Positions 650 through 7,660 of a stretch of 7,660 bases of DNA are shown in pieces; within the stretch, counting starts at the first letter, position 1, and each line of letters starts with the position of its first letter. The DNA is from a virus (lineage: Duplodnaviria; Heunggongvirae; Uroviricota; Caudoviricetes), in the IMG/VR virus record IMGVR_UViG_2778261105_000004, positions 1 to 7,660 of that record; one strand, written 5' to 3'. The position numbers were made by a program, and so were the translations under genes. The notes below the pieces were generated by a model that had not been told where the DNA came from, did no database searches, and saw only the letters and a program-made list of their open reading frames with translations.

Positions 650-2050
650 TCAGTATCCGATCGCTTCCCATGAAAACTTGCCGTAGCATCCCCTGACTGT
701 TATCAGAGTCACAGACACTAATGACGGATTCGACAGGGTATACATCTTAATGACGTTGGGGTCTCCCACTGCAGACACCTGAGCATTCAGAGCAGCAACC
801 GGAAAAGCGACAGGAAAACGGATAGAGTGTTGTGTCATAAGCTTACCATCATCCTCACTTACCTCAATACTGCCCCATTGCCGCAAACGACCGGTTACTT
901 CATCACGCTCCCAGCCATTTACTGTCAGGCTTGCTGTTGTGGGCTTGTTTTTTGTGCTGTAATCCACCCGCCAGTGAAAACGTTGTGTGTCTCCGTAAAC
1001 TGTACAGGTACAGACCGTGCCGTTCAGAAAACCATCGCCACCGTATTCGCCGATGGTGACCCGGACTATGGCTGCGTTATACGTCCCCATCACCTCAATG
1101 GCGCAGCCTCCCAGATTGAGTTTTCCCGGTCCGACATCCGTGATGACCTTATTAAATTCCGCAAGCAGTGATGCCTTCATCATCCAGTAAGGCTGGTCAA
1201 ATGCCCCCTTTTCTTTCAGCCTGGCCACAAACTCACTCGTGGTCCATTCACCGGTCTCCGTATGAATGTCCCGCCCGTATACTCTGGCTGCTCCCACGGT
1301 GTTCAGAAACTTCACCTTATCCGGGATATCGTCACCGTTTTTCGCTTTCTCCAGGCATCCGTCCGCTTTGTCCATTGCCGCTTTCACCGCTTTCGGGGTG
1401 GCTGCCTTCGTTTCATCATCACTGTCCGTTGCGCTGCTTAACTGCACAATTCCCTTCTGTGCCGTCGTCGCATCCGGTCCTCCCGGCTCGCCTTTTTCGC
1501 CCTTCTCTCCCCGTTCACCTTTCACACCCTGAAGCCCCTGTGGTCCTGTCTCACCACGCTCACCCTTTGGCCCACGCTCGCCGGTATCGCCTTTTGGCCC
1601 GGGAATACCCTGTGGCCCGGTGTCCCCCTTATCCCCCTTCGGTCCCCGCGCATTCTCTGCCCGTTTTTTTGCCTCCTCCGCACTGGCTGCGGACGCTTCC
1701 GCACGTTTCAGGATTTCCGCTGCCACCGCTTCCAGCTCTGCAAGGGCTTTCGGGTAATACTGTGCGTCTTCCAGGTCCATCAGATATTTATTCAGCGTTC
1801 CCGGTGCAGAATCCGCCTTCACCAGAATGTCACCCACATATGACGGCGCGTACCCTTCCGTGTTCAGCGTCACCCGGTACAACCCCGGCTCAACATCCAT
1901 ACTGTAACTGCCGGTTTCCCCCGGCTGACCATACGCCACCGTGGTGACAATCACCGTCTCCGTTGTGCGGCGCGCTTTCAGCTCTATCGTGCATCCCGGT
2001 ACCGCTTTTCCCGTACCATCCTTCAGCACACCCGATATTCTGACTGTCAT
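650..2050 (-). CDS. stf: Side tail fiber protein with collagen-like Gly-X-Y repeat (lambda Stf-like N-terminus)
   Basis: 466-aa ORF. The N-terminus [26 protein letters not shown]... resembles the lambda Stf N-terminus as remembered ([25 protein letters not shown]). It contains a Gly-X-Y repeat block ([55 protein letters not shown]) and the motif [12 protein letters not shown]...AATPKAVK that I also recall from lambda Stf. There is a GGGGGA SD upstream of the ATG at 2050..2048. Confidence 0.9.
1478..1645 (-). repeat. Collagen-like Gly-X-Y triplet-repeat coding block inside stf (about 19 triplets)
   Basis: Residues about 136-191 of the stf translation are uninterrupted G-X-Y triplets rich in Pro, Lys and Glu. 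The DNA here is a run of ggc/ccc-rich 9-nt periodic sequence on the plus strand. Confidence 0.8.
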
Positions 2051-2063
2051 GGATTTCCCCCAT

Positions 2064-2097
2064 AAAAAAACCGCAGGACCGGTTTCCCGGCCTGCGG
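2064..2097 (-). terminator. Rho-independent terminator (minus strand) ending the hok-like unit, immediately upstream of the stf SD and start
   Basis: Minus-strand reading is CCGCAGGCCGG-gaaa-CCGGTCCTGCGG followed by TTTTTTT (plus strand A7 at 2064..2070, hairpin 2071..2097). The GC-rich stem is about 11 bp with one bulge and a 4-nt loop, then a U7 tract, then atgggggaaatcc and the stf ATG. Confidence 0.6.
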
Positions 2098-2161
2098 TAA
2101 TATTTGTGGTTTGTTGGTGTTAAAACGGTGCCATCCGGCTGACCACCCTCAGCAACCGGTC

Positions 2162-2184
2162 GGCGGGGGATATTCTCCCCCGCC
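2162..2184 (-). other. Perfect 9-bp GC-rich palindromic hairpin 9 nt downstream of the hok-like stop codon (no U-tract)
   Basis: Plus strand ggcggggga (2162..2170), loop tattc, tcccccgcc (2176..2184). The arms are exact reverse complements. On the minus strand it follows TAA-gaaaccgtg and is not followed by a U run, so it is more likely an mRNA 3' stability or processing structure than a terminator. Confidence 0.4.
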
Positions 2185-2192
2185 ACGGTTTC

Positions 2193-2333
2193 TTACTGCT
2201 TACACTGTAAGAACGCCGCAATCTCCGCGCCCGCTATCCGGAACCGGAACTCGCACAGTGAAGTGTGGGTGATCCAGATAATGAGCACTACCGTGATACA
2301 AATCACGGTGGTTTTTAACGGTTTTTGCGACAT
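2193..2333 (-). CDS. hok: Hok/Gef-family type I toxin (46 aa small membrane peptide)
   Basis: My own minus-strand translation from ATG 2333..2331 to TAA 2195..2193 gives MSQKPLKTTVICITVVLIIWITHTSLCEFRFRIAGAEIAAFLQCKQ. It has a hydrophobic N-terminal helix (VICITVVLIIWI) followed by the SLCE-x-R...E-[IV]-AAF-[LM]-x-C signature that I recall as diagnostic for Hok/Gef/HokA-type peptides. The SD AAAAGGAG lies 9 nt upstream of the ATG and there is an in-frame TAA 6 codons upstream. The ORF is under 60 aa, so it is not in the supplied ORF track. Confidence 0.8.
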   Translation of the reverse strand: MSQKPLKTTVICITVVLIIWITHTSLCEFRFRIAGAEIAAFLQCKQ

Positions 2334-2486
2334 AAACGCTTGCTCCTTTTACGGAGAGGCGCTAACCTTTCACTTGCTTAGGATGAATGGTCAGGCCTCG
2401 GGTTAAACATGAATGTTTGTCCGGGGCCTTTTCACATCCGGCCTTCAGGTGTTCCCTCCGGCCATCAGCCAAAGGCACCCGCGCAT

Positions 2487-2515
2487 ACTGTACGGTTTTT
2501 GTCTCCTTCCGGCAA
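2487..2515 (-). promoter_or_regulatory. Candidate sigma70-like promoter for the hok-like transcript (TTGCCG - 17 nt - TACAGT)
   Basis: On the minus strand, TTGCCG (2515..2510), a 17-nt spacer, then TACAGT (2492..2487), located 17 nt downstream of the J stop codon. This predicts a leader of about 150 nt and an mRNA of about 415 nt ending at the 2064..2097 terminator. The hexamers match consensus only 4/6 each, so confidence is low. Confidence 0.3.
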
Positions 2516-2531
2516 TCCCGGGGCGCGATGT

Positions 2532-5500
2532 TCAGCGGATACTGATCCCCGCGCTGTTTTTCTTCACCACTATCGCCTGAAGGTTACTGATACGTGAACT
2601 GCCAAAACTCCCGTTCTGACGTCGTGAACTTACGGTAAAACTCAGGGTGATATGACCATGACCGGCTGGCATATCGATGATCCCGCTGAAAATTCCCGGC
2701 TCTGTCACTGACCTGCCTGAATAAATCCGGCGTCCGTTCTGATCAACATGCAGGAAGCACTCTGTCCAGATGTCATTACTGGTGCGGGATTCCTGTTTTG
2801 ACCCGACATAGATTATCGGCGGGATTATAATCTGCCGGTCAAAGCTGTGATCGTCATACACCGTCAGCGTTCGTGTACCGTTCGCAAGGTAACTACCATC
2901 CACCGGAAAAGCCACCCCTGCACATTTCACAAGATCACCAATAATGTTCTCCGCTTTCAGCGTGCCATTTATCGTACAGTTCTCCGCTATCACGACATTA
3001 TTCAGCGTGCCCGAGTTCGCACTGATATGTCCGCTGATGTCCGCATTGCGGGCCGTCAGCCTGCCCTCCGGCGTCAGGGAGAACGTCGGGGGATTGCCGG
3101 ACGAGGTGATGCTCACCGCAAACAGTCGCTTCAGGAACACATCGTTCATGAACAGCTGATTCCCCTGCGCCACAAACAGCGGCGTGGTGTTGCCGTTCTC
3201 CGGGTTAATCATCGCGATACGGTCCGCCTGCAGCAGTATATTGCTCAGGGGCTGGCCATCAGCATCCTCAATCCCCGCACCAATACCGGCAACATACGGA
3301 ATGCCGTTTTTTGTTTTCTGCACCTTCAGCATGTACAGCGCAGCCAGGTCGTTATTTGTGTCTGTCTGCACCCGCTGTATCTGCTGTATGGTGGCGCTCT
3401 GGTCTTCCAGGGTTTTACTGACCGTCTGCGTGATTTCATTGCGGGTTTCTGTGATGGTGGTCTTCATCTCCGCCATCTCATCATCAAGCTGGCTGTTATC
3501 AATCAGCTCCCACATCCCCTGTGCCAGATGCAGTTTTCCTATCTTTTCCCGAAACAGCCCCAGATACCCTTCCGCATCATTGCTGGCCCGGCCACTGGCT
3601 TCCACAAACGCAGATTTCCCCACCAGGTTGACGCTGCGCACATAAAACCAGAAATCCTTCCCCGGCTTAATGTGCGGGCCGGAGACACTCCACTGGCTGC
3701 CTGTCCCCAGATAACGGGCAGAGGTTTCCACCTGAGATGTGTCTGCGATTTTTGCCTCCGAAAACCAGAACTCAAATTGTACCGTCGGGTCATACACCGT
3801 AAGATGCGGGACCGCCGTTATCTGATAATACCCCGGCGTCAGTTCAATGCTGGCCGGTGCTGCCGGTGCGTTAATCCGGAACGTGGTGGTGGCAGGTTCG
3901 CCCTGCTGGCCGTAGCTGTTTATCGCCCTGACCGTCAGGGTGTATTCCCCGGGCGGCAGGCCACTGAAACGGTGCTCCGTGTCGGCAGTGATAGCGCTGG
4001 TCACCAGGCGGCTGTTTTCACCACTGCCACTGGTCAGGCGCAGACTGAAGCGCACGCCCTTCACCACCCGCGGCGTGTCCCATTTCGCCAGCGCCAGATA
4101 CTGGCCGTCTGAGGCACTCACCTCCACCGTGAGGTGCTGCACTGCCGGCGGGATGACGCTGTTCAGTGAACCGGTGAGCGGCTCAAAGGTGGCCCCGTTA
4201 TCCACGATGGCTTCTTTTTCCGGTACGTGCTGCACTGCCGTGATGGCAAAGGTGCCGTCCGTGTTTTCCCGGATGGAAACACAGCGGAACAGGCGACGAC
4301 GCAGTGACGGCAGGGAGAGTCCCCACACACCGTATGTCTCCACGCCATCAGGCAGGACGCTGACCTGTATCCGGTCAGGGGCGGGGTGTGCAGTGATGTC
4401 CACGCGCACCGGCTTACCGCTGCCGTTAATCAGGTTCACCGTCGATGTCCCTGCTTCCGGCAGTATCACCTCACGGTCCAGCGTCAGGGTACGGCTGGCG
4501 GCATCGATGGACAGGATGCGTCCACCGGTCAGGGTCCCGGCGTAGTCGTTATCACAGATTTCAATGATGTCACCGGGCGTGTGCCGCAGCCCCTGTGACC
4601 CGAGCGTGAAATCCACCGTCTGCGTTTCCAGCAGTTCTGTCTTTATCACCCACAGTCCGGCACGGTGGGCCTGACCGCGGCTGGTACAGCCGAACGCATC
4701 CATCTTCAGCAGATTGCGCCCGTAGCGCAGGATGGCGTCCGGGTCTTCCACCAGTTCCGTGGAGGTCTGCCAGCCGTTCTGCGGGTCGGTGTAATTCACC
4801 TCCACCGCCGTGTGCCGGTCCTTCAGGGCACTGAAGCTGTAGCGGAACCCCACGCCGTTATCATCCACCACCACATCGCTGTTGGTGTACGGCCACACCA
4901 CATCCGACGGACGGTCCTGAACGAACGTCAGCGTCTGGCCGTTCCATACCGGCATACAGCGCATCGCCGAGCAGAAATCCCCCAGGACATCCCACACCTT
5001 ACGCTGCTGTGACAGGTACGCATTGAAAGTCATCCGCGGCTCTGTTCCCCCGAAACCATCCGGGACCGTCTGGTCACAGTACTGCCCGATGGCATACAGT
5101 GCCCACTTGTCCACGTCCGCCGCCCCCAGGCGTTTTCCCATCCCGTAGCGCGGGTGGGTCAGCATGTCCCACAGGCACCAGGCCGGGTTATTGCTGTATG
5201 CCGGTTTCAGACTCCCGTCCCAGATACCGCTGTAGGTGCGTTTTTCCGGGTCATAGTTTGACGGCACCTGAATGATGCGACCACGGATATGGTAGTTCAC
5301 CGTCAGCTGCTGGCCACCAAACTGCTCCGCATCCACCTGCAGCCCCACAATCGCCGTGTTCGGGTAGCACTGTTTCACATCGATGATTTCGGTGTATGAC
5401 GACCACAGCGTTCTGTTCTGCAGCTGGTCCGTGGTGCTGTCCGCCGTCACCCTGACCATCCGGATGTTAAAGGGGCGCTCAGGGAGATTATTCAGAATCA

Positions 5501-5999
5501 CCGACGTCAGGTACTGCGAGGTGGTCTTGCCGTTAATGGTGACATCCTTCTCCGTCACCCAGTGCCCGTTACGCTCAAGCTGAATCAGCAGGCGGACAGA
5601 AGAGGGATTACGGTCACCCTTTGAGGTGGTCTCCACCAGTGACTGTACCCCGAAGGTGACCCGCAGACGGTCAATGTTCGCTGACGTGATGGTGCGCGTC
5701 ACCGGCTTTGCCTTCGTCACCTCCACGCCCAGTGCGGTTTCCGCCCCGGAGGACTCAAAGCCTTCCGGCGGTGTCTGCTCCTGCTCCCCGGCACGCCAGA
5801 CGGCGGTCACACCGTGTATCACGGGATTACCGTCCGTGTCCGTCAGCGGGGTTTTGTTCACCAGAATACTCTGCAGTCCCTTCACCGGACCTTCCACCGG
5901 TCCCTCACCAATGGCATCAATCACGCTCATCATCTGCGTGGATTTGAGATTGTCCTTCGCCTCACTCGGTGTGTGCCCCTTGCCGCCCCCTTTACCCAC
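2532..5999 (-). CDS. J: Host specificity protein J (tail tip / central tail fiber protein)
   Basis: 1155-aa ORF. The N-terminus (M)[36 protein letters not shown]... and long internal stretches (e.g. [95 protein letters not shown]) match lambda J as I remember it. The initiation codon is GTG (5999..5997), preceded by the SD GGAGAGGGGGA. It lies immediately downstream of I and upstream of stf. Confidence 0.95.
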
Positions 6000-6040
6000 T
6001 CTGTCCCCCTCTCCTGTCTGATGTCTGAATCTGTTTATGC

Positions 6041-6073
6041 CAGAAAACGACAGGCACCCCGGAGGGTGCCTGT
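6041..6073 (-). terminator. Candidate minus-strand hairpin with U-tract (attenuator or partial terminator) about 40 nt upstream of the J start
   Basis: Minus strand reads ACAGGCACCC-tccg-GGGTGCCTGT, a perfect 10-bp GC-rich stem with a 4-nt loop (plus strand 6050..6073), followed by CGTTTTCTG. The U-tract is interrupted, so termination efficiency is uncertain. Confidence 0.35.
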
Positions 6074-6099
6074 GTCATGACGGAATAAAATTTCTGAAA

Positions 6100-6138
6100 T
6101 TCTTCACATTTCCGGCAATTGCCTGTAGCCACTATAAT
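6100..6138 (+). promoter_or_regulatory. Unit A promoter-like element: conserved box TTCTTCACATT plus -10 hexamer TATAAT 33 nt downstream
   Basis: Box 6100..6110 and TATAAT 6133..6138 on the plus strand. The same box and a TATCAT hexamer occur at the identical 33-nt offset in unit B, although the intervening 22 nt are diverged. There is no good -35 (TTCCGG), which suggests an activator-dependent or non-canonical promoter. Confidence 0.35.
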
Positions 6139-6144
6139 GACGCA

Positions 6145-6247
6145 GCGTTACAGTTTTTTTGCTCAATAAAAGCAATAATTATCAGACCTCCTTAAGGTGA
6201 CTATTCGTCTCCCGTCAGTATCCGGCGATATTACGGGAGATTTTTTT
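6145..6247 (+). ncRNA. Candidate small RNA A (about 100 nt), antisense to the tail operon, in the I-J intergenic region
   Basis: Predicted start about 7 nt after the TATAAT. The 5' region GCGTTACAGTTTTTTTGCTCAATAAAAGCAATAA is conserved with unit B. It contains an anti-SD-like CCTCCTT and ends at a strong intrinsic terminator. There is no plausible ORF with an SD on this strand. Confidence 0.35.
6208..6247 (+). terminator. Rho-independent terminator of unit A (plus strand)
   Basis: TCTCCCGT-c-AGTATC-cggc-GATATT-ACGGGAGA (about 14 bp of stem with one bulge and a 4-nt loop, 6208..6240) followed by TTTTTTT (6241..6247). Confidence 0.7.
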
Positions 6248-6339
6248 GCTTCAGCCACACCACAACATCCTGCTCATTTACGCCACTGGTACCCTGGCGG
6301 TCATCCGTTCTGTAAACCTGCGACAGAAAAAGTCTGAAT

Positions 6340-6378
6340 TTCTTCACATTTTCTGTACGTTCCCGTGGCAGATATCAT
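6340..6378 (+). promoter_or_regulatory. Unit B promoter-like element: conserved box TTCTTCACATT plus -10-like hexamer TATCAT 33 nt downstream
   Basis: Box 6340..6350 and TATCAT 6373..6378, the same box-to-hexamer distance as unit A. The flanking GTCTGAATTTCTTCACATTTT is conserved with unit A (TCTGAAATTCTTCACATTT). Confidence 0.3.
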
Positions 6379-6384
6379 TCCGGG

Positions 6385-6484
6385 GCGTTACAGTTTTTTC
6401 GGGTCAATAAAAACAAAACTCCTTGAACGTTAATCTTCATCGGTTCTGTCCCGCAGCTCCGCTAACTCTGCGGGATTTTTTTTT
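6385..6484 (+). ncRNA. Candidate small RNA B (about 100 nt), paralog of unit A, antisense to the tail operon
   Basis: The conserved 5' region GGCGTTACAGTTTTTTCGGGTCAATAAAAACAAAACTCCTT aligns with unit A. It ends at a strong terminator 5 nt from the I stop codon. There is no plausible coding capacity. Confidence 0.35.
6449..6484 (+). terminator. Rho-independent terminator of unit B (plus strand)
   Basis: TCCCGCAG-ctccgctaact-CTGCGGGA (8-bp GC-rich stem, 6449..6475) followed by TTTTTTTTT (6476..6484). Confidence 0.7.
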
Positions 6485-6488
6485 ATTT

Positions 6489-7169
6489 TTATCCCCGCCC
6501 GATAACCACCACTTTCCCGTCTCCGCCCTCATCACGGGTGCTGATATCCTGGGATATCCGTCGTGAACCAACCAGCATTTCACCGTAAGGCACCGGCATC
6601 GGGTTACCCTGGGCAATCATGTTGTCCAGTGACGAAAAATACGTGTTCTGTTTACCGTTATCCGTACTTTTGTACTCCGGCGTCTTTGCCTTCGGGGCCA
6701 GCATCTGGGCCACACCACCCAGTATCATGCTGGCACCCAGTGAGAACAGCATCGTGGTGGCAGTCAGCCCTCCGGCACTCAGGGCTGCGCCCCATGCCGC
6801 CAGTGTTGCACCACCAGTGAAAAATGACCCGACAATCGCTGCAACCCCCAGCACCACCTGAAAAACACCATTTCCCCCGGCTCCGGCCAGTCGCGGCACA
6901 ATGTGGATGACCGCTCCCTCACCCAGTTGTTCGTGAAGACGGGCGTACACCGCCTCCGGTGCGGTATCCTCACCGGCAATACGTATCTGATACCAGCCTT
7001 CGTTCATCTGACCGCGGAATCCCGGCACCTGCAGCGACAGGGCACGGATGGCCTCCGCTGCCGTGTTCACATACAGGCTGATGCGGCGACCAAATCGTTG
7101 TAAATCCCCGTGAAGGCAGATGCGGACCAGTGGCGGTGACGCCAGACAGAATGCGTTCGTCGTTGCCAT
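6489..7169 (-). CDS. I: Tail tip assembly protein I
   Basis: 226-aa ORF MATTNAFCLASPPLVRICLHGDLQRFGRRISLYVNTAAEAIRAL...GKQNTYFSSLDNMIAQGN... It closely matches lambda gpI as I recall it (RFGRRI, IHIVPR, a Gly/Ala-rich hydrophobic segment, GKQNTYFSSLDNM). The SD GGGAGAGG lies upstream of the ATG at 7169..7167. Confidence 0.92.
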   Translation of the reverse strand: MATTNAFCLASPPLVRICLHGDLQRFGRRISLYVNTAAEAIRALSLQVPGFRGQMNEGWYQIRIAGEDTAPEAVYARLHEQLGEGAVIHIVPRLAGAGGNGVFQVVLGVAAIVGSFFTGGATLAAWGAALSAGGLTATTMLFSLGASMILGGVAQMLAPKAKTPEYKSTDNGKQNTYFSSLDNMIAQGNPMPVPYGEMLVGSRRISQDISTRDEGGDGKVVVIGRG

Positions 7170-7660
7170 TTTTCAGAATACCTCTCCCGTTTACTCAGTT
7201 GTTCAGGTATATGGTGAAGCAGTTCACCGTTGCCACAGTAAATGGCGGCATGATTCGGCACCGATGAACCAAAGCAGCACAGCAGGATATCGCCCGCCTG
7301 TGCACAGGACGGAGACACCCGGTAAAAGCCGTTGTCTGCCAGGTTGTCCAGGTACAGGTTCTGACCGTTGCGCCACCAGTCATCCTCACGCACAAAATCC
7401 GGCAGCGTTATCCCCGCCAGATGGTATGCATCCCGGAACAGGGTGTAACAGTCCGTCACACCGTGTTCAAAGCGCCGTCCGGTCAGGTGCGGCACACAGC
7501 GGAACCGGTGAATTTCACCCCGGCAGACCAGCCACCAGGGCAGGGCACTCTTTATCTGCAGCCGCCGGTCCGCCTCGCTCAGCCAGGGCAGACCACCGGG
7601 ATGACTGTGGACCAGCGCCACAATCTCCCCCTGCATCTGTGCCTGCAGCCAGTCTTCCGG
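7067..7660 (-). CDS. K: Tail tip assembly protein K (JAMM/MPN metalloprotease motif plus NlpC/P60-like Cys/His region); partial, N-terminus beyond the window edge
   Basis: The frame is open from the window edge (PEDWLQAQMQGEIVALVHSHPGGLPWLSEAD...). The JAMM signature H-S-H-x7-S-x2-D is at about 7568..7609, which is too close to the Met at 7636 for that Met to be the real start, so the gene must begin upstream of 7660. Downstream are DCYTLF (candidate catalytic Cys) and a conserved His region. The 3' end overlaps the I start by about 103 nt in another frame. Confidence 0.9.
   Translation of the reverse strand, partial: PEDWLQAQMQGEIVALVHSHPGGLPWLSEADRRLQIKSALPWWLVCRGEIHRFRCVPHLTGRRFEHGVTDCYTLFRDAYHLAGITLPDFVREDDWWRNGQNLYLDNLADNGFYRVSPSCAQAGDILLCCFGSSVPNHAAIYCGNGELLHHIPEQLSKRERYSEKWQRRTHSVWRHRHWSASAFTGIYNDLVAASACM

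What the first reader, a model, noticed from the sequence alone, without database searches (positions are those of the whole stretch)
2193..2531. Hok-like gene lacks a mok-type overlapping reading frame; plus-strand hairpin with T-tracts lies inside the toxin coding region
In canonical hok/sok loci, hok translation is coupled to an overlapping mok frame and Sok pairs with the mok initiation region. Here the only frame overlapping the toxin ORF is closed by TAG (2364..2362) 30 nt upstream of the hok ATG and has no start codon, while the toxin has its own consensus SD. On the opposite strand, inside the toxin codons, there is a 7-bp hairpin CCGTGAT-acaa-ATCACGG (2291..2308) followed by TGGTTTTTAACGGTTTTT. 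This could be the terminator of an antitoxin RNA that pairs with the toxin coding region rather than with a leader, which would be a non-canonical regulatory layout for a Hok homolog. I could not find a convincing promoter for such an RNA, so this is weakly supported.
Basis: inference. Interest (0 to 1): 0.45.

Follow-up and report, generated by a model that had tools for sequence, protein, structure and literature searches.

The report
Hok/Sok toxin module without mok
This is a hok/sok toxin-antitoxin cassette in an E. coli prophage that has an ordinary Sok antisense gene in its leader, but it and its whole clade of relatives lack the mok leader reading frame that the textbook system needs to translate the toxin.

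Summary
Both observations are real. No mok-type frame reaches the hok start: stops lie at -18, -31 and -47, with no ATG/GTG/TTG after them. A 7-8 bp palindrome sits at 2290-2309, followed by T-runs on the + strand.

The proposed coding-region antitoxin is not supported. A canonical Sok gene lies in the leader on the + strand: -35 TTGCTC 2340-2345, -10 TAACCT 2363-2368, RNA about 2376-2432. This matches the layout of annotated sokW, sokB and sokC. The leader hits Rfam RF01794 end to end (55 bits, E 2e-10). The tac/fbi, tac/ucb and GAGGC/GCCUC pairings are all present.

The palindrome folds within the predicted hok mRNA structure. Its adjacent T-run comes from a Lys codon that most relatives lack.

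The missing mok is general. None of 49 distinct leaders from Escherichia, Salmonella and Citrobacter prophages has a start codon after the conserved GAGG. The same test finds one in 44 of 46 HokW-type phage loci, and in hokA, hokB, hokC and an R1-type hok.

Hok is under purifying selection (dN/dS 0.15-0.62), so it is probably translated. How it is translated is unknown, because the predicted start-site accessibility is no higher than in mok-containing loci.

Verdict: a new, mok-less variant of a known system.

The parts
2510..2515 (-). hok promoter -35 (TTGCCG)
   Evidence: Read from the sequence. ATTGCC is invariant in the window, 933W, P88 and PA2 despite different upstream genes. A 17-nt spacer separates it from the -10.
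2487..2492 (-). hok promoter -10 (TACAGT)
   Evidence: Relatives carry TAAATT, TAGATT or TAGAAT at the same place, followed by 6-7 nt and then GGGTGCC. Inferred, not measured.
2064..2480 (-). Predicted full-length hok mRNA, from +1 at G2480 to the terminator T-run
   Evidence: Position 1 of Rfam RF01794 aligns to 2480. The 415-nt RNA folds at -186.3 kcal/mol, z -7.9. The terminator stem is 2071-2097 and the T-run 2064-2070.
2465..2480 (-). tac element at the 5' end (GGGUGCCUUUGGCUGA)
   Evidence: It pairs with fbi in the full-length minimum-energy fold. In the 27-sequence consensus fold it pairs with ucb, with one pair changing UA to CG in 7 sequences.
2422..2431 (-). ucb (AAAGGCCCCG)
   Evidence: It pairs with tac in the consensus fold. 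It pairs with GAGGCC in the full-length fold, forming the closed state.
2395..2399 (-). GAGGC, the former mok Shine-Dalgarno, with no start codon after it
   Evidence: It is conserved in the clade. Three of 27 distinct variants read GAGAC, with a compensating GUCUC partner. ATT replaces ATG 7 nt downstream.
2356..2399 (-). Sok target hairpin (GAGGC ... GCCUC) with a hypervariable apical stem
   Evidence: All 27 distinct variants fold alone into the same hairpin, at -12.6 to -22.0 kcal/mol, with compensated apical stems. The Rfam structure line agrees.
2362..2364 (-). TAG that closes the mok-equivalent frame
   Evidence: It lies inside the near-invariant block AGGTTAGCGCCTC. That block is also the Sok -10 on the other strand and the 3' arm of the target hairpin.
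2343..2348 (-). hok Shine-Dalgarno (AAGGAG), 9 nt before the ATG
   Evidence: Read from the sequence. It pairs with CUCC (2353-2356) in every predicted state.
2193..2333 (-). hok toxin gene (46 aa plus stop)
   Evidence: Pfam PF01848, 6e-11. RefSeq names it a Hok/Gef family protein. dN/dS is 0.15-0.62 across the clade.
2290..2309 (.).
   Evidence: 78.2% of cells are paired across 27 relatives, and 6 of 8 pairs show changes on both sides. Both strands are supported equally: 169 against 171 of 216 cells.
2213..2333 (-). Long-range helix AUGUCGCAA (2333-2325) with UUGCGGCGU (2221-2213) that buries the hok start codon
   Evidence: RNAalifold consensus fold of 27 relatives. Two U-G pairs are read on the hok strand. 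The helix is also in the single-sequence folds.
2162..2184 (-). 3' UTR stem-loop (GGCGGGGGAGAAUAUCCCCCGCC)
   Evidence: It lies in the 3' UTR, upstream of fbi. By recall, a similarly placed stem-loop ends the processed R1 mRNA.
2127..2144 (-). fbi (GGUCAGCCGGAUGGCACC), which pairs with the 5' tac
   Evidence: Full-length minimum-energy fold. TGGCACC is invariant in the window, 933W, P88 and PA2. DNA homology with 933W ends at 2123.
2340..2345 (+). Sok promoter -35 (TTGCTC)
   Evidence: It sits where sokW has TTGCCT, sokB TTGCCG and sokC TTGACC. The 933W-type relatives read TTGACT.
2363..2368 (+). Sok promoter -10 (TAACCT), 17 nt after the -35
   Evidence: The hexamer is identical to the one upstream of annotated sokW. 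It is near-invariant in the clade; two of the 27 representative relatives aligned read TATCCT instead.
2376..2432 (+). Predicted Sok antisense RNA (about 57 nt)
   Evidence: The start is placed by analogy with annotated sokW and sokB. The RNA has a free 5' tail and a 15-bp terminator hairpin followed by UUUU; it folds at -21.5 kcal/mol, z -2.8. Not measured.

Best explanation
Window 2064-2515 is a complete hok/sok-type type I toxin-antitoxin cassette. It is inserted as a moron between the J gene and the tail-fibre gene of a lambdoid E. coli prophage.

The toxin mRNA is made on the - strand from about 2480. It has the family's control elements. The 5' tac pairs either with the 3' fbi (inert full-length form) or with ucb. 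GAGGC pairs either with ucb or with GCCUC. A long-range helix buries the hok AUG.

The antitoxin is an ordinary cis-encoded Sok RNA, on the + strand at about 2376-2432. It comes from a TTGCTC-17-TAACCT promoter that overlaps the hok SD region. It is complementary to the leader target hairpin, 43-99 nt upstream of the hok AUG. By analogy with R1 and with hokW-sokW, pairing should lead to RNase III cleavage and decay of the processed mRNA (inferred).

What differs is that the mok reading frame is missing, here and in every relative of this clade. Hok must therefore start at its own SD and AUG without translational coupling. The former mok ribosome-binding site survives as a structural switch element, and perhaps as a landing site for ribosomes (inferred).

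The palindrome at 2290-2309 is most simply a hairpin of the hok mRNA. It is not the terminator of a second antisense RNA.
For: Family membership:
- Pfam Hok/Gef match.
- Rfam RF01794 matches the - strand 2480-2322 over model positions 1-157, E 2e-10.
- The closest DNA relatives are E. coli prophages at 98-99.8% identity, and the unannotated locus downstream of lom in 933W at 77%.

Sok:
- The promoter hexamers, the spacing, the start and the GGCCUCGG...CCGGGGCC terminator line up with annotated sokW, sokB and sokC.
- The predicted RNA fold is typical for Sok.

mRNA elements:
- tac/fbi, the SD hairpin, the AUG helix and the 3' stem-loop appear in the full-length fold, z -7.9.
- tac/ucb and the AUG helix appear in the consensus fold.
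- The target hairpin is kept in 27 distinct variants through compensated changes.

No mok:
- All three frames are closed, with no start codon.
- 0 of 49 distinct leaders have an ORF that starts after GAGG and reaches the hok SD.
- The same kind of test gives 44 of 46 for HokW-type phage loci. It also finds an ATG for hokB, hokC, hokW, the R1-type hok and an intact hokA.
- A 1-nt indel (TTT or TT) just before the hok ATG is polymorphic among loci over 94% identical. No ORF across that junction can be under selection.

Functional toxin gene: dN/dS is 0.15-0.62 at dS up to 1.3, with intact ORFs in 82 loci.
Against: There are no expression data of any kind. The Sok start, the hok start and the 3' processing are all inferred by homology.

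The Rfam score (55 bits) is below the family's gathering score (59). Clade relatives score 36-54 bits.

In R1, premature mok stops upstream of the hok start abolish toxicity, which the authors attribute to Hok not being translated (PMC9841398). By that paradigm this locus should be silent.

Predicted accessibility of the hok SD, AUG and first codons is no higher than in mok-containing HokW loci (median 0.37 against 0.36). It hardly changes between the full-length, truncated and Sok-bound states. Folding therefore gives no explanation of how the start site opens.

The palindrome is equally compatible with either strand.
Confidence: 0.6

Rival explanations
1. A second, non-canonical antitoxin RNA is transcribed on the + strand across the hok codons. 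It terminates at the hairpin 2291-2308 with its T-tracts, and represses the toxin by pairing with the coding region.
For: The hairpin is real and is stronger on the + strand: -17.2 kcal/mol over 11 pairs, followed by UUUU AACGG UUUUU. It is the only such feature on the + strand of the window, against 0.17 expected. By recall, antitoxins antisense to a toxin's coding region exist in other type I families such as Ibs/Sib.
Against: No promoter-like site was found in 2000-2620. The best -10-like hexamer, GATAAT at 2277-2282, has no -35, would start the RNA inside the hairpin, and is not conserved (933W reads GATGGT). The adjacent T-run depends on Lys7 (AAA) and is absent in 15 of 27 representative relatives, while seven of those keep at least 7 of 8 hairpin pairs. 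A canonical Sok already accounts for the antitoxin.
Confidence: 0.04
2. Coupling persists through a cryptic upstream reading frame. Ribosomes would start at a near-cognate codon at the old mok site (ATT 2388, 7 nt after GAGG) or at the small ORF starting at ATG 2410. They would stop at TAG 2364-2362 or TAA 2380-2378, and in doing so open or re-initiate at the hok start 31-47 nt downstream.
For: ATT occupies exactly the position of the mokB, mokC and mokW ATG. The TAG lies 13 nt before the hok SD, so a terminating ribosome might melt part of the SD hairpin. In HokW-type loci the upstream ATG is kept whichever of the three frames it is in, and in four distinct loci the ORF ends at +1. Only the passage of ribosomes seems to matter.
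Against: Neither start is conserved. 933W-type and many other leaders have no ATG/GTG/TTG or ATT/ATC/ATA/CTG 4-12 nt after GAGG. Where such codons exist, their ORFs stop anywhere from -47 to -17. The loop ATG 2410 is ACG, CTG or TTG in other subclades. In R1, premature mok stops upstream of the hok start abolish toxicity.
Confidence: 0.12
3. The cassette is translationally crippled. Loss of mok would be an inactivating or domesticating event that leaves a harmless, largely silent hok, like the inactivated chromosomal hok loci of E. coli K-12.
For: By the R1 rules, a mok start-codon mutation or an early mok stop is a loss-of-function mutation. The predicted hok start site stays buried in all modelled states. 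In K-12, IS elements lie within or right next to the hokA, hokC and hokE loci.
Against: The Hok ORF is intact in 82 loci, with dN/dS 0.15-0.62 across Escherichia, Salmonella and Citrobacter. The promoters, tac, ucb, fbi and the Sok target hairpin are all maintained, the last through compensating changes. Such maintenance is not expected if the toxin is never made. The cassette has also spread to at least three phage contexts: between J and the tail-fibre gene, downstream of lom, and in P2-like P88.
Confidence: 0.15

Closest known systems
hokA/mokA/sokA of E. coli (intact allele, strain SF-088)
   Same: It has the closest Hok C-terminus among named paralogs (AAFLACK against AAFLQCK). The leader has the same plan: GGGTGC 5' end, AAAAGCCCC ucb, GAGGCC, and an AGGTTAGCCTC block carrying the TAACCT Sok -10.
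   Different: hokA has ATG 7 nt after GAGG, at -60, in frame with hokA and reading through it. The window has ATT there and stops in all three frames.
hokW/mokW/sokW of phage 933W and Sakai prophage 5 (Takada et al. 2021, PMC8621323)
   Same: It is a phage-borne hok/sok and has been shown to act as a toxin-antitoxin pair. The Sok -10 hexamer (TAACCT) and the Sok geometry are identical.
   Different: It is a different locus and a different Hok type: 51 aa, HokC/HokD-like, 113.5 bits on RF01794. mokW is annotated, and an upstream ATG is present in 44 of 46 distinct loci. Phage 933W also carries a relative of the window's cassette, unannotated in that record, downstream of lom.
hok/mok/sok (parB) of plasmid R1
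   Same: Same overall logic: an inert full-length mRNA locked by 5'-3' pairing, Sok antisense to the leader, an AAGGAG hok SD 9 nt before the AUG, and the hok AUG paired with the AAF(M/L) codons (mechanism from PMC9841398).
   Different: R1 needs mok translation up to the hok start site, and Sok blocks the mok start site. Here there is no mok. Sok pairs with a leader segment that holds no start codon and ends about 27 nt before the hok SD.
tisB/istR-1 and zorO/orzO (type I systems with a ribosome standby site; recalled from the literature, not tested here)
   Same: The toxin start site is structured. The antitoxin pairs well upstream of it, to a site whose exposure depends on mRNA processing. 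No upstream ORF is involved.
   Different: The toxins and RNAs are unrelated. Standby binding is only a hypothesis here. In 3 of 27 variants GAGG is GAGA with a compensating partner, so the clear constraint is pairing rather than SD identity.

Membership tests
[quoted passage not shown] | A small hydrophobic Hok/Gef toxin (Pfam PF01848) | tested here: met
   42.2 bits against a cut-off of 22, E 6e-11, profile positions 8-42 of 42. The conserved SLCE and C-terminal Cys are present.
[quoted passage not shown] | The hok mRNA leader fold (Rfam RF01794, which runs from +1 to the hok AUG) | tested here: inconclusive
   The match covers the full model (1-157) at 55 bits, E 2e-10, which is below the gathering score of 59. 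hokC, hokW and an R1-type hok score 118, 114 and 87 bits. Clade relatives score 36-54 bits.
[quoted passage not shown] | A cis-encoded Sok antisense RNA in the leader, with its own promoter and terminator | tested here: met
   Met at the sequence level only. TTGCTC-17-TAACCT, a start about 7 nt downstream and a terminator hairpin with UUUU sit at positions homologous to annotated sokW, sokB and sokC. Transcription was not testable.
[quoted passage not shown] | 5' tac pairing with 3' fbi in the full-length mRNA, and alternatively with ucb | tested here: met
   tac/fbi is in the minimum-energy fold. tac/ucb is in the 27-sequence consensus fold, with one compensated pair. The thermodynamic fold of the truncated RNA did not form tac/ucb on its own; forcing it cost 12 kcal/mol.
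[quoted passage not shown] | A mok leader ORF that starts about 7-8 nt after GAGG and is translated through the hok start site | tested here: not met
   The window has no start codon, and stops lie at -18, -31 and -47. 0 of 49 distinct clade leaders meet the criterion, against 44 of 46 HokW-type loci.
[quoted passage not shown] | Toxicity of Hok, slow 3' processing, RNase III cleavage of the Sok duplex, post-segregational killing | not testable with these tools
   These need experiments. Purifying selection on Hok is the only indirect support.
Type I antitoxins antisense to the toxin's coding region (Ibs/Sib-like layout) | A promoter and an intrinsic terminator for an RNA antisense to the toxin codons, both conserved in relatives | tested here: not met
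   No promoter-like site was found. A hairpin is present, but its adjacent T-run is absent in 15 of 27 relatives.
Ribosome-standby type I systems (tisB/istR-1-like mechanism) | A structured toxin start site, an antitoxin target well upstream of it, and no upstream ORF | tested here: met
   Met by geometry and prediction only. P(unpaired) is 0.33-0.46 for the hok SD and 0.18-0.29 for the AUG. The Sok target spans -43 to -99. There is no ORF.
Ribosome-standby type I systems (tisB/istR-1-like mechanism) | 30S binding at the upstream site is required for toxin translation and is blocked by the antitoxin | not testable with these tools
   This needs toeprinting or filter binding, plus reporter fusions.

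The most novel reading that the evidence does not exclude
In this clade the mok ribosome-binding site has lost its start codon but is kept as a processing-gated landing (standby) site for 30S subunits. From there they reach the buried hok start about 45 nt downstream. Sok would then act by occupying that site as well as by triggering decay. This would be a natural hok/sok that works like tisB/istR-1, and it would show that mok translation is dispensable in the family.
Probability: 0.25. Interest if true: 0.7.

Novelty: new variant of a known kind. Interest (0 to 1): 0.5.

Why it matters
hok/sok is the textbook antisense-regulated killer system. Its accepted logic is that Sok controls hok only indirectly, by blocking translation of the overlapping mok frame.

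This study finds a widespread natural clade that keeps the toxin under purifying selection. The clade occurs in lambdoid, Stx-converting and P2-like prophages of Escherichia, Salmonella and Citrobacter. Megablast finds a match to the cassette region in 1,530 of 5,426 complete E. coli genomes. The clade keeps every RNA switch element and the Sok gene, yet has no mok. Either hok can be translated and controlled without coupling, or these cassettes do something other than classic killing.

The most recent family-wide survey states that Mok was not analysed because it is hard to predict (bioRxiv 10.1101/2025.08.07.668861). Six full-text searches, including phrase searches for mok-less loci, found no report of one.

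There is also a practical point. Clade members score below Rfam's gathering threshold, so standard annotation will miss their Sok genes.

Tried and rejected
1. Strand assignment of the coding hairpin from wobble pairs. The hok strand had 169 of 216 cells paired and the opposite strand 171 of 216, so the test does not discriminate.

2. The 933W and P88 types form a hairpin shifted by one codon. Sliding the partners by +3 columns gives 63% paired.

3. Looking for a more open hok start site that would make up for the loss of mok. Predicted accessibility equals that of HokW-type loci for the AUG and for the whole start region, and the SD is slightly less open. It barely changes between the full-length, truncated, Sok-blocked and tac/ucb-forced states.

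4. Looking for any conserved alternative upstream ORF. Only patchy ORFs exist, from unrelated starts: L009, L029, L077/80/84/86, L037/41, L028/52 and L066/72/93. None is shared between subclades.

5. The consensus promoter scan found nothing in 2000-2620. That includes the hok and Sok promoters, so the scan is insensitive here and its negative result for the + strand is weak.

6. I first assumed the 933W relative was the published hokW. The primer sequences and the 51-aa length in Takada et al. show that hokW is a different locus.

An alignment was used instead.

8. Steif and Meyer's 'The hok mRNA family' and the older Gerdes-laboratory papers are not in the library. What they say about mok in other homologs could not be checked.

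Full report
CONTEXT

The window is the tail region of a lambdoid E. coli prophage, with all named genes on the - strand:
- K-like gene, 7067-7636.
- I-like gene, 6489-7169.
- J, 2532-5999, with ten Pfam J-protein domains.
- A 46-aa Hok/Gef ORF, 2193-2333.
- A tail-fibre gene, 650-2050.

The 511 nt around the hok ORF are 98-99.8% identical to prophages in complete E. coli genomes and to phage 1720a-02. They are about 77% identical, over window 2123-2501, to an unannotated locus downstream of lom in 933W and other Stx phages, and to a locus in the P2-like phage P88. The cassette therefore moves between phage contexts together with its own promoter region.

THE OBSERVATION

Both parts are in the sequence.
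- The frame equivalent to R1 mok is closed by TAG 2364-2362 and has no canonical start before +32. The hok frame and the third frame are closed at -18 and -47.
- The palindrome CCGTGAT-acaa-ATCACGG is at 2291-2308 and T-runs follow it on the + strand.
- It is the only hairpin-plus-T-tail of its kind on the + strand of the window, against 0.17 expected.
- It is stable on either strand: -17.2 and -12.6 kcal/mol.

A CANONICAL SOK GENE IS PRESENT

Rfam RF01794 is named 'sok' but actually models the hok mRNA leader from +1 to the hok AUG. It matches the - strand 2480-2322 over all 157 model positions (55 bits, E 2e-10, gathering score 59).

I set the + strand beside the annotated sokW (933W) and sokB, sokC and sokE (K-12). 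The window has TTGCTC (2340-2345), 17 nt, TAACCT (2363-2368), 7 nt, then GCUUAGG.... This is followed by the GGCCUCGG...CCGGGGCC hairpin and UUUU (2429-2432). sokW has TTGCCT-17-TAACCT-6-G, and sokB starts GCUAGG.... The predicted 57-nt RNA has a free 5' tail and a strong terminator hairpin.

Sok is thus complementary to hok mRNA positions -43 to -99. This is the usual place, not the coding region.

THE HOK mRNA IS OTHERWISE CANONICAL

The 415-nt RNA (2480-2064) folds at -186.3 kcal/mol (z -7.9). The fold contains:
- 5' GGUGCC/GGCUGA paired to 3' UCAGCC/GGCACC (tac/fbi).
- GGCCCC (ucb) paired to GAGGCC.
- The hok SD paired to CUCC.
- The hok AUG buried in a helix with the AAF codons.
- A 3' UTR stem-loop and a terminator.

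The consensus fold of 27 relatives recovers tac/ucb, with one UA-to-CG compensated pair, and the AUG helix, with U-G pairs on the hok strand.

All 27 distinct versions of the segment GAGGC...GCCUC fold into one long hairpin. Its apical stem is hypervariable but compensated. Three variants change GAGGC/GCCUC to GAGAC/GUCUC.

THE CODING HAIRPIN

In the window's register, 78% of cells pair across the 27 relatives, against 73.4 +/- 1.2 in shuffles. Six of the eight pairs show changes on both sides. Examples are CGTGAT/ATCACG in the window, CGCGGT/ACCGCG in a Citrobacter locus and CGCAAT/ATTGCG in another subclade. The 933W and P88 types use a register shifted by one codon.

Wobble pairs do not favour either strand.

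The T-run next to the hairpin is the complement of TTA AAA ACC (Leu6-Lys7-Thr8). Fifteen of 27 relatives lack it, yet seven of those keep at least 7 of 8 pairs. The second T-run is the complement of the invariant CAA AAA, which is itself part of the AUG helix. No promoter-like site precedes the hairpin on the + strand (and inspection).

The simplest reading is a hairpin of the hok mRNA whose antisense happens to resemble a terminator in this subclade.

mok IS MISSING FROM THE WHOLE CLADE

I collected 91 loci encoding relatives of this Hok from GTDB genomes and IMG/VR. They gave 49 distinct leaders, from Escherichia, E. albertii, Salmonella and Citrobacter prophages.
- None has an ORF that starts with ATG/GTG/TTG 4-12 nt after the conserved GAGG and reaches the hok SD. 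One has a TTG whose ORF stops at -38.
- Near-cognate codons are not conserved either.
- Among loci more than 94% identical to the window, a 1-nt indel (GCGTTTATG or GCGTTATG) shifts the leader relative to hok. No frame across that junction can be selected.

Controls run with the same kind of test:
- hokB, hokC, hokW, an R1-type plasmid hok and an intact hokA all have ATG 7-8 nt after GAGG, reading through hok.
- 44 of 46 distinct HokW/HokD-type phage loci have it too.
- In those controls the ATG is kept whether it is in frame 0, -1 or -2 relative to hok. This fits the published view that passage of ribosomes matters, not the Mok peptide.

The TAG itself is not the cause. hokW and hokA carry the same AGGTTAGCC block, which holds the Sok -10 and one hairpin arm, but read it in a frame that avoids the stop.

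IS THE TOXIN GENE ALIVE?

Pairwise dN/dS is 0.15-0.62, with dS up to 1.3, and the ORF is intact in 82 loci with 32 distinct coding sequences. Both promoters and all pairing elements are conserved. This argues against a decaying relic.

WHAT REMAINS UNEXPLAINED

Here the hok start site is predicted to be as buried as in mok-containing loci (median P(unpaired) 0.37 against 0.36). It hardly changes between modelled states. How ribosomes reach it is therefore open.

I commit to mok-independent initiation at hok's own SD, with Sok acting mainly through duplex formation and decay. Ribosome standby at the orphan GAGG site is the most interesting sub-model. Each is listed with what would refute it.

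LITERATURE

- The published hokW-sokW of Sakai prophage 5 is a different locus, of HokC/HokD type with mokW.
- The 2025-26 survey of Hok diversity reports enrichment in prophages, and says Mok was not analysed because its prediction is ambiguous.
- Six full-text searches found no report of mok-less hok loci. The older Gerdes-laboratory comparative papers are not in the library.

VERDICT

The coding-region antitoxin interpretation is rejected. The absence of mok is real, holds across the clade and is not explained by current models. This is a new variant of a known kind, of moderate interest.

Noticed in passing
window 6000-6488: About 490 nt separate the I-like tail-assembly gene from J, and RefSeq genomes annotate no gene there. 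The stretch holds a strong terminator-like hairpin with T8 on the + strand (6437-6483; a weak Rfam hit that is only a terminator). It also holds a 7-9 bp hairpin with a T-rich tail on the - strand (6053-6070). Prophage Pas sRNAs are reported next to capsid or tail structural genes, and one of them (PasA) often has Rfam 'Sok' hits in its flanks, so this could be a small RNA gene or moron.
   Followed up: partly
window 2369-2392, and the same segment in L001-L095: The apical stem and loop of the Sok target hairpin are hypervariable, with 27 distinct versions, yet always compensated. The flanking blocks are nearly invariant. Genomes carry up to 7 places matching the cassette. This looks like diversification of Sok/hok recognition that keeps paralogous copies from cross-reacting.
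   Followed up: partly
L001 1501-1880 (933W record 45490-45869, downstream of lom): Phage 933W and many Stx phages carry a second hok/sok cassette, of the window's mok-less type. The 933W records consulted (NC_000924.1) annotate nothing there. It is separate from the annotated hokW/mokW/sokW at 58460-58734. RefSeq phage records label the small ORF 'MokW-like host killing', which is a misnomer.
   Followed up: yes
L098 (IncFII plasmid pMTY1886), 57 nt upstream of hok: In this plasmid the Hok protein is identical to R1 Hok, but the upstream ATG is in frame with hok. The result is a 71-codon N-terminally extended ORF rather than an overlapping out-of-frame mok. mokC, mokW and mokA are in frame too. 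The 'overlapping frame' picture of mok does not hold generally; only the upstream start is conserved.
   Followed up: partly
window 2162-2184: The complement of the hok 3' UTR stem-loop scores as a terminator-like site on the + strand (GGCGGGGGATATTCTCCCCCGCC followed by ACGGTTTCTT). Together with the 2290-2309 hairpin, it could stop antisense read-through into the cassette.
   Followed up: no
window 2532-2534 to 2480, and 2050-2097: No terminator lies between the J stop codon and the hok promoter. The hok terminator ends 14 nt before the tail-fibre ATG. Antiterminated late phage transcripts would therefore carry hok internally, which may matter for toxin expression during lytic growth.
   Followed up: no
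window 650-2050: The tail-fibre protein combines a prophage tail-fibre N-terminal domain, collagen triple-helix repeats (residues 135-190), a phage fibre repeat and a gp53-like C-terminal domain.
   Followed up: no
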